Notes under the pieces: generated by a model
The model's input: only the letters and a program-made list of their open reading frames with translations
What the model was told of the DNA's origin: nothing
Database searches by the model: none
Shown: one piece after another, positions 6,947 to 17,562 of the stretch
Numbering within the stretch: position 1 is the stretch's first letter
Layout of the letters: each line of letters starts with the position of its first letter
Translations under genes and position numbers: made by a program
Sequence record: AY264775.1
Length of the DNA: 39,093 nucleotides
Direction: 5' to 3' (one strand)
Source: Escherichia phage T7

Positions 6947-7039
6947 ATGATGTACTTAATGCCATTACTCATCGTCATTGTAGGATGCCTTGCGCTCTAC
7001 TGTAGCGATGATGATGATATGCCAAATGGTCACGCTTAA
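6947..7039 (+). CDS. 1.5: gp1.5 (30 codons here; contains a GAT x4 run)
   Basis: ORF MMYLMPLLIVIVGCLALYCSDDDDMPNGHA. Confidence 0.7.
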   Translation: MMYLMPLLIVIVGCLALYCSDDDDMPNGHA

Positions 7040-10380: not shown

Positions 10381-12479
<2,099 letters not shown>

Positions 12480-13082: not shown

Positions 13083-13490
13083 ATGCGTGACCCTAAAGTT
13101 ATCCAAGCAGAAATCGCTAAACTGGAAGTTGAACTGGAGGACGTTAAGTACCATGAAGCTAAGACTCGCTCCGCTGTTCACATCTTGAAAAACTTAGGCT
13201 GGACTTGGACAAGACAGACTGGCTGAAAGAAACCAGAAGTTACCAAGTTGAGTCATAAGGTGTTCGATAAGGACACTATGACCCACATCAAGGCTGGTGA
13301 TTGGGTTAAGGTTGACATGGGAATTGTTGGTGGATACGACTACGTCCGCTCAGTTAGTGACAAATATGCACAAATGTCATACATCACAGATGTTACTCCA
13401 CGCGGTGCAATCGTTACCGATAAGACCAACATGATTCACACAGATTTCTTGACAGTTGTTTCATATGAAGAGATTGTTAAGTCACGATAA
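13083..13490 (+). pseudogene. 4.7: gp4.7 reading frame interrupted by an in-frame TGA at 13224-13226 (codon 48 of 135)
   Basis: ATG at 13083 after phi4.7 and an SD; same frame continues to the stop at 13488-13490; the track splits it into ORFs 12954..13226 and 13248..13490 in one frame. Confidence 0.8.
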
Positions 13491-15638: not shown

Positions 15639-15995
15639 ATGAACGAAAGACACTTAACAGGTGCTGCTTCTGAAATGCTAGTAGCCTACAAATTTACCAA
15701 AGCTGGGTACACTGTCTATTACTCTATGCTGACTCAGAGTAAAGAGGACTTGGTTGTATGTAAGGATGGTAAATTTAGTAAGGTTCAGGTTAAAACAGCT
15801 ACAACGGTTCAAACCAACACAGGAGATGCCAAGCAGGTTAGGCTAGGTGAATGCGGTAGGTCCGAATATAAGGATGGAGACTTTGACATTCTTGCAGTTG
15901 TGGTTGACGAAGATGTGCTTATTTTCACATGGGACGAAGTAAAAGGTAAGACATCCATGTGTGTCGGCAAGAGAAACAAAGGCATAAAACTATAG
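15639..15995 (+). CDS. 5.3: gp5.3
   Basis: 118-aa ORF. Confidence 0.85.
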   Translation: MNERHLTGAASEMLVAYKFTKAGYTVYYSMLTQSKEDLVVCKDGKFSKVQVKTATTVQTNTGDAKQVRLGECGRSEYKDGDFDILAVVVDEDVLIFTWDEVKGKTSMCVGKRNKGIKL

Positions 15996-16006
15996 GAGAA
16001 ATTATT

Positions 16007-16306
16007 ATGGCTATGACAAAGAAATTTAAAGTGTCCTTCGACGTTACCGCAAAGATGTCGTCTAACGTTCAGACAATCTTAGAGAAAGATATGCTGCATC
16101 TATGTAAGCAGGTCGGCTCAAGTGCGATTGTCCCCAATGGTAAACAGAAGGAAATGATTGTCCAGTTTCTGACACACGGTATGGAAGGATTGATGACATT
16201 CGTAGTACGTACATCATTTCGTGAGGCCATTAAGGACATGCACGAAGAGTATGCAGATAAGGACTCTTTCAAACAATCTCCTGCAACAGTACGGGAGGTG
16301 TTCTGA
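16007..16306 (+). CDS. 5.5: gp5.5, H-NS-binding protein
   Basis: 99-aa ORF MAMTKKFKVSFDVTAKMSSNVQTILEKDMLHL... Confidence 0.9.
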   Translation: MAMTKKFKVSFDVTAKMSSNVQTILEKDMLHLCKQVGSSAIVPNGKQKEMIVQFLTHGMEGLMTFVVRTSFREAIKDMHEEYADKDSFKQSPATVREVF

Positions 16307-16515
16307 TGTCTGACTATCTGAAAGTGCTGCAAGCAATCAAAAGTTGCCCTAAGACTTTCCAGTCCAACTATGTACGGAACAATGCGAGCCTCGTAGCGGA
16401 GGCCGCTTCCCGTGGTCACATCTCGTGCCTGACTACTAATGGACGTAACGGTGGCGCTTGAGAAATCACTGCTTCCGATATTCGCTTTCTGAAACGAATG
16501 AGAGGATGTGTCTAA
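16306..16515 (+). pseudogene. 5.7: gp5.7 (inhibitor of sigma-S RNA polymerase) interrupted by an in-frame TGA at 16459-16461 (codon 52 of 69)
   Basis: MSDYLKVLQAIKSCPKTFQSNYVRNNASLVAEAASRGHISCLTTNGRNGGA*EITASDIRFLKRMRGCV*. Confidence 0.8.
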
Positions 16516-16673
16516 TGTCTCGTGACCTTGTGACTATTCTACGCGATGTGTGAAACGATATACAGGGCTACATCGACTCTCTGGAACGTGAGAACGATAG
16601 CCTTAAGAATCAACTAATGGAAGCTGACGAATACGTAGCGGAACTAGAGGAGAAACTTAATGGCACTTCTTGA
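16515..16673 (+). pseudogene. 5.9: gp5.9 (RecBCD inhibitor) interrupted by an in-frame TGA at 16551-16553 (codon 13 of 52)
   Basis: MSRDLVTILRDV*NDIQGYIDSLERENDSLKNQLMEADEYVAELEEKLNGTS*. Confidence 0.85.
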
Positions 16674-17562
16674 CCTTAAACAATTCTATGAGTTACGTGA
16701 AGGCTGCGACGACAAGAGTATCCTTGTGATGGACGGCGACTGGCTGGTCTTCCAAGCTATGAGTGCTGCTGAGTTTGATGCCTCTTGGGAGGAAGAGATT
16801 TGGCACCGATGCTGTGACCACGCTAAGGCCCGTCAGATTCTTGAGGATTCCATTAAGTCCTACGAGACCCGTAAGAAGGCTTGGGCAGGTGCTCCAATTG
16901 TCCTTGCGTTCACCGATAGTGTTAACTGGCGTAAAGAACTGGTTGACCCGAACTATAAGACTAACCGTAAGGCCGTGAAGAAACCTGTAGGGTACTTTGA
17001 GTTCCTTGATGCTCTCTTTGAGCGCGAAGAGTTCTATTGCATCCGTGAGCCTATGCTTGAGGGTGATGACGTTATGGGAGTTATTGCTTCCAATCCGTCT
17101 GCCTTCGGTGCTCGTAAGGCTGTAATCATCTCTTGCGATAAGGACTTTAAGACCATTCCTAACTGTGACTTCCTGTGGTGTACCACTGGTAACATCCTGA
17201 TTCAGACCGAAGAGTCCGCTGACTGGTGGCACCTTTTCCAGACCATCAAGGGTGACATCACTGATGGTTACTCAGGGATTGCTGGATGGGGTGATACCGC
17301 CGAGGACTTCTTGAATAACCCGTTCATAATCGAGCCTAAAACGTCTGTGCTTAAGTCCGGTAAGAACAAAGGCCAAGAGGTTACTAAATGGATTAAACGC
17401 GATCCTGAGCCTCATGAGACGCTTTGGGACTGCATTAAGTCCATTGGCGCGAAGGCTGGTATGACCGAAGAGGATATTATCAAGCAGGGCCAAATGGCTC
17501 GAATTCTACGGTTCAACGAGTACAACTTTATTGACAAGGAGATTTACCTGTGGAGACCGTAG
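16660..17562 (+). CDS. 6: 5'-3' exonuclease (gp6)
   Basis: 300-aa ORF. Confidence 0.97.
   Translation: MALLDLKQFYELREGCDDKSILVMDGDWLVFQAMSAAEFDASWEEEIWHRCCDHAKARQILEDSIKSYETRKKAWAGAPIVLAFTDSVNWRKELVDPNYKTNRKAVKKPVGYFEFLDALFEREEFYCIREPMLEGDDVMGVIASNPSAFGARKAVIISCDKDFKTIPNCDFLWCTTGNILIQTEESADWWHLFQTIKGDITDGYSGIAGWGDTAEDFLNNPFIIEPKTSVLKSGKNKGQEVTKWIKRDPEPHETLWDCIKSIGAKAGMTEEDIIKQGQMARILRFNEYNFIDKEIYLWRP

What the first reader, a model, noticed from the sequence alone, without database searches (positions are those of the whole stretch)
16551..16553. In-frame opal codon at codon 13 of gene 5.9 (RecBCD inhibitor)
Gene 5.9 (16515..16673) reads MSRDLVTILRDV*NDIQGYIDSLERENDSLKNQLMEADEYVAELEEKLNGTS. 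The acidic DNA-mimic region lies after the stop, so apart from readthrough this is effectively a null allele. Wild type has Trp here as far as I recall (RDVWNDIQGY), i.e. TGG->TGA.
Basis: partly seen in the sequence, partly recalled or inferred. Interest (0 to 1): 0.6.

Follow-up and report, generated by a model that had tools for sequence, protein, structure and literature searches.

The report
Mutagen-induced stop codon in T7 gene 5.9
The stop codon is real and disables phage T7's small RecBCD-inhibitor gene, but it is one of about 400 chemically induced mutations in a published laboratory-mutagenised T7 line, so it is an ordinary, expected lesion and not a new biological feature.

Summary
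Window 16551-16553 is TGA at codon 13 of T7 gene 5.9 (16515..16673). Wild-type T7 and seven relatives all have TGG (Trp) there, so the change is G>A at 16553.

The context explains it. The window differs from wild-type T7 (AY264774) by 416 substitutions. Of these, 390 are G>A or C>T, and 80% of the mutated G's follow a purine, which is an alkylating-mutagen signature. It shares 386 of the 416 with 'T7 isolate K115' (AY264776). It is therefore K115's ancestor, almost certainly isolate K (AY264775) from the mutagen-plus-bottleneck experiment of Bull et al. 2003.

Two other non-essential genes carry the same kind of lesion: 5.7 (W52) and 4.7 (W48). A mutation model weighted by sequence context predicts 2.9 nonsense hits in non-essential genes (3 seen) and 9.5 in essential genes (0 seen). 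The descendant K115 later deleted the whole 5.5-5.9 block.

The allele is a passenger loss-of-function mutation. It may be slightly leaky, because UGA readthrough inserts Trp, the wild-type residue. Gene 5.9 also carries P9L. This is already known and of low interest.

The parts
16515..16673 (+). T7 gene 5.9 (RecBCD/MukBEF inhibitor gp5.9), here a pseudogene or leaky null allele: two changes from wild type, P9L and W13opal
   Evidence: Aligns to AY264774 17360-17518, annotated 'gene 5.9'.
16551..16553 (+). Premature opal codon TGA (wild type TGG, Trp13), G>A at 16553. The next base is A (TGA-A).
   Evidence: Trp13 is present in all 7 homologues aligned.
16539..16541 (+). Codon 9 CTA (Leu), wild type CCA (Pro), C>T at 16540. 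Any readthrough product would carry this second lesion.
   Evidence: Position 9 is P/S/T in relatives, never L.
16306..16515 (+). Gene 5.7, also truncated: TGG>TGA at codon 52 of 69 (window 16459-16461), plus 4 missense changes
13083..13490 (+). Gene 4.7, the third TGG>TGA nonsense in this genome (codon 48, window 13224-13226). K115 retains it, and its record labels the gene 'similar to gene 4.7'.
16647..16662 (+). Gene 6 (exonuclease, essential) Shine-Dalgarno GAGGAG and ATG. They lie inside the 3' end of 5.9 and are unchanged from wild type, so gene 6 does not depend on 5.9 being translated.
   Evidence: Gene 6 ORF 16660..17562 is intact.
15988..16641 (+). 654-bp segment (last bases of 5.3, all of 5.5 and 5.7, first 127 nt of 5.9) that the descendant isolate K115 later deleted, by joining the two RBS repeats AACTAtAGGAGAAA and AACTAgAGGAGAAA

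Best explanation
The TGA is a chemically induced G>A transition that turned Trp13 (TGG) of T7 gene 5.9 into an opal stop. It became fixed by drift as a neutral passenger in a laboratory T7 line. That line was propagated with an alkylating mutagen through single-plaque bottlenecks. It is lineage K of Bull, Badgett, Rokyta & Molineux 2003, and the window is almost certainly GenBank AY264775. Translation stops after a 12-residue peptide, so the coiled-coil DNA mimic that blocks RecBCD (and MukBEF) is not made, apart from a few per cent of readthrough. Gene 5.9 is dispensable on the laboratory host, so the lesion was tolerated. Gene 6 downstream has its own intact ribosome-binding site. Shown here: the mutation, its ancestral state, the mutational spectrum, the relationship to K115, the neutral pattern in non-essential genes, and the later deletion of the locus. 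Inferred: the identity of the mutagen, the accession, the loss of RecBCD inhibition in vivo, and the absence of a fitness cost.
For: (1) TGA at 16551-16553, TGG in wild type. (2) 416 substitutions against AY264774, of which 199 are G>A and 191 are C>T. 80% of mutated G's have a 5' purine, against 51% of all G's (chi-square p = 1e-31). GC>AT dominance is what nitrosoguanidine produces in T7 (PMC6042481). (3) 386 of 416 substitutions are shared with AY264776 'isolate K115' and 23 more lie in regions K115 has deleted. AY264774-AY264778 form one series (wild type, K115, P, P82). AY264775 is the one accession missing from the collection, and every search counts one unlisted record at >=99% identity. 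AY264774 is attributed to Bull et al. 2003 (PMC2680503), and that study is cited as fixing random mutations by serial extreme bottlenecks (PMC4811365). (4) All three nonsense mutations in the window (4.7, 5.7, 5.9) and both in the independent P line (0.4, 4.2) are TGG>TGA in non-essential genes. The context-weighted model makes TGG>TGA the most likely nonsense type (7.2 of 12.4 expected). It predicts 2.9 nonsense hits in non-essential genes (3 observed) and 9.5 in essential genes (0 observed). (5) The missense:synonymous ratio is 75:41 = 1.83 in non-essential genes (1.84 expected) and 105:120 = 0.88 in essential genes (1.90 expected). (6) K115 deleted the 5.5-5.9 block entirely. (7) T7 escape mutants carrying gp5.9 L23P plate on recBCD+ E. 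coli (Millman et al. preprint). (8) Residues 1-49 form the functional coiled-coil dimer (PMC9836394).
Against: I could not read the primary paper or record AY264775. The lineage assignment and the mutagen are therefore inferred from sister records, citing papers and the mutation spectrum. K115 has deleted this codon, so no second sequence confirms this particular base. The only support is the window itself plus the fit to the spectrum. The essential/non-essential split used comes from my own knowledge of T7 genetics (Dunn & Studier 1983, Molineux's reviews), not from a tool. 'Neutral' is a class-level inference. It does not exclude a small benefit or cost for this one allele.
Confidence: 0.88

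Rival explanations
1. Leaky hypomorph, not a null. Trp-tRNA(Trp) reads UGA at a few per cent, which inserts the wild-type residue. Infected cells would then make a small amount of full-length gp5.9 carrying only P9L. That may be enough to titrate the few RecBCD molecules in a cell. The origin of the mutation is the same as in the best explanation; only the functional consequence differs.
For: UGA readthrough by Trp-tRNA(Trp) in competition with RF2 is about 2% at 37 C and about 4% at 25 C in E. coli K-12 reporters (PMC10570021). The stop is followed by A, whereas 19 of 21 natural T7 TGA terminators are followed by T or C. gp5.9 inhibits RecBCD with an IC50 of about 1.3 nM (PMC9836394). Position 9 is variable in relatives (P/S/T).
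Against: gp5.9 works as a dimer, so activity should fall faster than monomer yield. The N-terminus contacts RecB and RecC, and altering it with a tag raised the IC50 about 18-fold, so P9L may itself be damaging. Leu is not seen at position 9 in any relative. K115 deleted the gene without apparent penalty. Readthrough at this particular site has not been measured.
Confidence: 0.12
2. Adaptive loss. Inactivating gp5.9 was positively selected in this line. Possible reasons are that gp5.9 is toxic (it also inhibits MukBEF), or that active host RecBCD helps a heavily alkylated phage genome.
For: gp5.9 expression is highly toxic to E. coli even in a recB deletion strain, through MukBEF (PMC7617805). 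The 5.5-5.9 block was subsequently deleted during the large-population recovery phase that produced K115. Loss-of-function in 5.9 is selected on hosts carrying retron Ec48.
Against: The independent P and P82 lines keep an intact, unmutated 5.9. The number of nonsense hits in non-essential genes equals the neutral expectation, and that class has a neutral missense:synonymous ratio. Single-plaque bottlenecks minimise selection (PMC4811365). Host toxicity matters little to a lytic phage with a short latent period. Deleting already dead genes is favoured simply because it shortens the genome.
Confidence: 0.05
3. Sequencing or assembly error in the deposited record. The phage actually has TGG.
For: This base cannot be cross-checked, because the only descendant sequence (K115) has deleted it.
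Against: The change is the type (G>A) and context (second G of GG) favoured by the genome-wide spectrum. 386 of the window's 416 differences are independently confirmed in K115, so the record is generally reliable. The sister records mark their nonsense-bearing genes as 'similar to gene X' features and not as CDS, so the depositors recognised such stops as real.
Confidence: 0.03
4. Programmed recoding: TGA is decoded as an amino acid (Trp or Sec) in this phage-host system, so the gene is intact.
For: Only that the ancestral residue is Trp, the amino acid most often assigned to UGA in variant codes.
Against: No tRNA gene is found in the window. TGA terminates 21 of 56 annotated T7 genes. Wild type and all relatives have TGG at this codon. 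The three in-frame TGAs are all recent mutations in a laboratory line. The host is E. coli, which uses the standard code.
Confidence: 0.01

Closest known systems
T7 isolate K / K115 lineage of Bull, Badgett, Rokyta & Molineux 2003 (J Mol Evol 57:241; GenBank AY264774-AY264778)
   Same: The window carries 386 of its 416 differences from wild type in common with K115 (AY264776). It has the same GC>AT spectrum as the sister P line, and its length (39,093 bp) fits the series.
   Different: Nothing found here differs. The window is the pre-recovery ancestor: it still has the 5.5-5.9 block and the 0.5-0.7 remnant that K115 later deleted. The accession itself (AY264775) could not be opened.
Wild-type T7 gp5.9 (UniProt P20406; PDB 8B1R), coiled-coil DNA-mimic inhibitor of RecBCD and MukBEF
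   Same: Same locus, synteny (5.7-5.9-6), length and sequence. 50 of 52 codons are identical.
   Different: W13 is replaced by an opal stop and P9 by Leu. The coiled coil (residues ~13-49) and 11 of 13 acidic residues are not translated unless the stop is read through.
T7 gene 5.9 loss-of-function escape mutants selected on retron Ec48 (Millman et al. 2020)
   Same: A viable T7 with impaired gp5.9 that grows on recBCD+ E. coli.
   Different: Those mutants are missense (L23P) and were positively selected by a defence system. This allele is a nonsense mutation that arose under mutagenesis and drift, with no evidence of selection.
Classical conditional-lethal nonsense mutants of T7 (Studier amber mutants)
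   Same: A single-base nonsense mutation induced by a chemical mutagen.
   Different: Those are amber mutations in essential genes, kept on suppressor hosts. This one is opal, in a non-essential gene, and needs no suppressor (this comparison rests on my own knowledge).

Membership tests
T7 gp5.9 RecBCD-inhibitor gene | Sequence homology and position between gene 5.7 and gene 6 of a T7-group genome | tested here: met
   98.8% nucleotide identity to T7 across 5.5-6. Aligns to AY264774 17360-17518, 'gene 5.9'. 185 phage records hold a homologue.
T7 gp5.9 RecBCD-inhibitor gene | Uninterrupted ORF of about 52 codons encoding the N-terminal strand plus the parallel coiled coil (residues 1-49 ordered in the complex) | tested here: not met
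   Opal stop at codon 13. Structure description in PMC9836394. It is therefore a pseudogene or null allele of the family, not a functional member.
T7 gp5.9 RecBCD-inhibitor gene | Acidic contact residues D4, D11, D15, E36, D38/E39, E45 | tested here: inconclusive
   All are still encoded, but only D4 and D11 lie upstream of the stop. The contact list is from Table 1 of PMC9836394.
T7 gp5.9 RecBCD-inhibitor gene | Inhibition of RecBCD DNA binding and ATP-dependent exonuclease activity | not testable with these tools
   Needs a biochemical assay or plating on hosts that sense RecBCD inhibition.
Mutagenised T7 lineage K (Bull et al. 2003) | Hundreds of substitutions relative to the laboratory wild type, dominated by GC>AT | tested here: met
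   416 substitutions, 390 of them G>A or C>T, with a 5'-purine bias.
Mutagenised T7 lineage K (Bull et al. 2003) | Shares derived mutations with the deposited descendant K115 and not with lineage P | tested here: met
   386 shared with K115, 25 with P. All gene 6 differences match K115 and not P.
Mutagenised T7 lineage K (Bull et al. 2003) | Identity to GenBank AY264775 | not testable with these tools
   The accession is absent from the collection. One unlisted >=99% record is counted.
Programmed stop-codon readthrough / recoding site | Stop codon conserved at that position in relatives | tested here: not met
   Wild type, the P line, T3, CICC 80001, vB_Yep_9, Vi06 and Tarrare all encode Trp.
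Programmed stop-codon readthrough / recoding site | Dedicated suppressor tRNA, or reassigned TGA in the genome | tested here: not met
   No tRNA genes. TGA ends 21 of 56 T7 genes.
Programmed stop-codon readthrough / recoding site | Stimulatory downstream RNA structure | not tested
   Not pursued. The downstream sequence is identical to wild type, where the codon is a sense codon, so a dedicated signal is implausible.

The most novel reading that the evidence does not exclude
The opal allele is a functional hypomorph and not a null. UGA followed by A is read through by Trp-tRNA(Trp) at a few per cent, which restores the wild-type residue. Because gp5.9 acts at nanomolar concentration against a target present at only a handful of copies per cell, isolate K would still neutralise RecBCD. 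That would show that TGG>TGA lesions in high-affinity stoichiometric inhibitors can be phenotypically silent.
Probability: 0.1. Interest if true: 0.25.

Novelty: already known. Interest (0 to 1): 0.08.

Why it matters
It matters very little as a discovery. The sequence is a deposited product of a published mutation-accumulation experiment, and the lesion is what the mutagen's spectrum predicts for a dispensable gene. Its practical value is as an annotation point: gene 5.9, along with 5.7 and 4.7, should be treated as a pseudogene in this genome. It also adds modest support for the view that T7 does not need gp5.9, gp5.7 or gp4.7 on a standard laboratory host. If the strain still exists, it could serve as a ready-made 5.9-defective T7 for work on defence systems that sense RecBCD inhibition (retron Ec48, Gabija).

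Tried and rejected
1. Direct retrieval of the window's own record (AY264775) failed: the accession is not in the collection. The primary paper (doi 10.1007/s00239-003-2470-1) is not held. Provenance had to be built from the sister records and citing papers.
2. My first five-way alignment of the 5.3-6.3 region was uninformative around 5.5-5.9, because K115 lacks that block and MAFFT forced a spurious alignment. I replaced it with a whole-genome alignment.
3. Local mutation clustering: 5.7+5.9 carry 8 substitutions in 368 nt, twice the genome mean (Poisson p = 0.046). Several other 400-nt windows carry 10-11, so this is not a notable hotspot.
4. Recoding or a suppressor tRNA: rejected.
5. In-frame reinitiation downstream of the stop: the only in-frame ATG is codon 35, which would give an 18-residue fragment. 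I judged this non-functional by inspecting the translation.
6. Polar effect on gene 6: its Shine-Dalgarno and ATG are unchanged, so I did not pursue it.
7. Identity with T7 gene 5.9 is unambiguous at the nucleotide level, and a solved structure already exists.

Full report
OBSERVATION. Window 16515..16673 (+) translates as MSRDLVTILRDV*NDIQGYIDSLERENDSLKNQLMEADEYVAELEEKLNGTS*. The in-frame stop is TGA at 16551-16553, and the ORF list shows this frame closing at 16553.

WHAT THE LOCUS IS. The surrounding 801 bases match Escherichia phage T7 at 98.8% identity over genes 5.5, 5.7, 5.9 and 6. A 20-kb stretch of the window matches T7 at 99.0%. A whole-genome alignment puts the ORF opposite AY264774 17360-17518, annotated 'gene 5.9'. 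Wild type has TGG (Trp13) where the window has TGA, so the change is G>A at window 16553 = AY264774 17398. A second change, C>T at 16540, converts Pro9 (CCA) to Leu (CTA). Trp13 is present in wild-type T7, the sister line P, T3, CICC 80001, Yersinia phage vB_Yep_9, Salmonella phage Vi06 and the 52%-identical phage Tarrare.

WHY IT IS THERE. About 99% identity is unusually low for a T7 laboratory stock. Against AY264774 the window has 416 substitutions. Of these, 199 are G>A and 191 are C>T (94% together). It also has an 821-bp deletion in the 0.6-0.7 region and two 3-bp indels. The mutated G is preceded by a purine in 80% of cases, against 51% for all G's in the genome (chi-square p about 1e-31). 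The 3' neighbour shows no bias. GC>AT dominance is what the Bull laboratory reports for nitrosoguanidine or hydroxylamine mutagenesis of T7 (PMC6042481). From my own knowledge, the 5'-purine-G preference is characteristic of N-methyl-N'-nitro-N-nitrosoguanidine.

Of the 416 substitutions, 386 are shared with AY264776, 'T7 isolate K115'. A further 23 lie in segments K115 has deleted, and only 5 are back at the wild-type base. Only 25 are shared with AY264777, 'isolate P'. The accessions AY264774 (wild type), AY264776 (K115), AY264777 (P) and AY264778 (P82) form a series. AY264775 is the one missing from the collection, and every similarity search counted exactly one unlisted record at >=99% identity. 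AY264774 is attributed to Bull et al. [quoted passage not shown] That study is cited as fixing random mutations through series of extreme bottlenecks (PMC4811365). I infer that the window is isolate K of that study, the mutagenised and bottlenecked ancestor from which K115 was recovered. I could not read the primary paper.

IS THE STOP SPECIAL WITHIN THIS GENOME? No. A gene-by-gene comparison finds three premature stops in the window, all TGG>TGA: gene 4.7 W48 (13224-13226), gene 5.7 W52 (16459-16461) and gene 5.9 W13. The independent P line has two more, also TGG>TGA, in genes 0.4 and 4.2. P and P82 keep 5.9 intact.

I used the observed per-site G>A rates by 5' neighbour to model expected hits. 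TGG>TGA is by far the most probable route to a stop codon (7.2 of 12.4 expected nonsense events), because it hits the second G of a GG pair. The model predicts 2.9 nonsense mutations in genes I classed as non-essential (3 observed) and 9.5 in essential genes (0 observed). That classification comes from my own knowledge of T7 genetics. Missense:synonymous counts are 75:41 (1.83) in non-essential genes against 1.84 expected. In essential genes they are 105:120 (0.88) against 1.90 expected. So the non-essential class, including 5.9, evolved neutrally in this experiment, while essential genes were under purifying selection. The 5.7-5.9 stretch has twice the mean mutation density (8 in 368 nt, p = 0.046), but other windows are denser.

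WHAT HAPPENED NEXT. K115 lacks window 15988-16641. That covers the last bases of 5.3, all of 5.5 and 5.7, and the first 127 nt of 5.9. The junction lies between two nearly identical ribosome-binding-site sequences, AACTAtAGGAGAAA before gene 5.5 and AACTAgAGGAGAAA before gene 6. Gene 6 therefore keeps its own initiation signals. The K115 and P records mark their nonsense-bearing genes as 'similar to gene 4.7', 'similar to gene 0.4' and 'similar to gene 4.2', not as CDS. The depositors thus already treated such genes as inactivated.

FUNCTIONAL CONSEQUENCE. gp5.9 is a 52-residue, highly acidic protein (pI 4.0). It forms a parallel coiled-coil dimer braced by a short N-terminal beta-sheet, with residues 1-49 ordered. 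It occupies the DNA-binding site of RecBCD, with ion pairs from D4, D11, D15, E36, D38/E39 and E45. Its IC50 is about 1.3 nM, and an N-terminal tag raises this about 18-fold (PMC9836394). It also binds MukE and blocks MukBEF loading, which makes it toxic to E. coli even without RecB (PMC7617805).

Stopping at codon 13 leaves a 12-residue peptide with 2 of the 13 acidic residues and no coiled coil, so the allele should be a loss of function. The only in-frame ATG downstream is codon 35, so reinitiation cannot rescue it. Gene 6's Shine-Dalgarno (16647-16652) and ATG (16660) are unchanged, so no polar effect is expected. T7 with impaired gp5.9 is viable: L23P escape mutants plate on recBCD+ E. 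coli (Millman et al. preprint).

One qualification applies. UGA is read through by Trp-tRNA(Trp) at about 2% (37 C) to 4% (25 C) in E. coli K-12 reporters (PMC10570021). That would insert the wild-type residue. The stop here is followed by A, a context used by only 1 of 21 natural T7 TGA terminators. A small amount of gp5.9(P9L) may therefore be made. Whether that is enough to matter is untested, and I rate it unlikely because of the dimer requirement, the added P9L change near the N-terminal contact region, and the later deletion of the gene.

ALTERNATIVES REJECTED. Recoding is excluded: the window has no tRNA genes, TGA is a normal terminator for 21 of 56 T7 genes, and the codon is TGG in every relative. 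Positive selection for loss is not supported: the P and P82 lines keep 5.9 intact, and the nonsense count matches the neutral expectation. A sequencing error cannot be formally excluded for this base, because K115 has deleted it. It is unlikely, since 386 of the window's differences are confirmed independently in K115 and the change fits the spectrum.

VERDICT. But this is a routine mutagen-induced passenger nonsense mutation in a dispensable gene of a published, deposited laboratory T7 line. It is already known and of low interest.

Noticed in passing
window 16459-16461 (gene 5.7, 16306..16515): Gene 5.7 is also truncated by TGG>TGA at codon 52 of 69 and carries four missense changes. The adjacent genes 5.7 and 5.9 are therefore both inactivated.
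   Followed up: yes
window 13224-13226 (gene 4.7, 13083..13490): A third TGG>TGA nonsense (W48), also followed by A. Gene 4.7 has 9 amino-acid differences in all. K115 retains the stop, and its record labels the gene 'similar to gene 4.7'.
   Followed up: yes
window 1734/1735 junction: An 821-bp deletion relative to wild type (AY264774 1759-2579) removes the 3' end of gene 0.6A and the 5' half of gene 0.7 (protein kinase / host shut-off). The independent P line has a different 819-bp deletion in the same region (AY264774 2170-2988), and K115 extends the loss by a further 770 bp. This looks like recurrent loss of the 0.5-0.7 region in laboratory passage.
   Followed up: partly
window 7007-7009 and after 7355: A 3-bp in-frame insertion in gene 1.5 and a 3-bp in-frame deletion in gene 1.7, both inherited by K115. 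These are the only small indels in a genome otherwise changed by base substitutions.
   Followed up: no
whole window; AY264774 coordinates such as 11062-11063, 15095, 19572, 19579, 30720, 36165, 36390, 36463: 25 substitutions are shared with the supposedly independent P line, against about 8 expected by chance under the context-weighted model. Ten of the 25 are not GC>AT changes, and the shared sites cluster in genes 7.3, 16, 17 and 17.5. They could be parallel adaptive changes, or differences between the real ancestor stock and AY264774. This is unresolved.
   Followed up: partly
window 15988-16002 and 16642-16656: Near-identical ribosome-binding-site repeats (AACTAtAGGAGAAA before gene 5.5, AACTAgAGGAGAAA before gene 6) are the exact endpoints of the 654-bp deletion seen in K115. 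This is a natural recombination substrate for losing the whole 5.5-5.9 block.
   Followed up: yes
whole window: All five nonsense mutations in the K and P lines are TGG>TGA. None is TGG>TAG, CAG>TAG, CAA>TAA or CGA>TGA. The strong 5'-purine (especially GG) bias of the mutagen explains most of this. Greater tolerance of leaky opal codons could also contribute, but I did not test that.
   Followed up: partly
window 1 and 39093 (genome ends): The window starts at AY264774 base 25 (P starts at base 24), and K115 lacks the last 5 bases. The deposited evolved genomes are slightly incomplete at the terminal repeats, probably a limit of sequencing primers and not biology.
   Followed up: no
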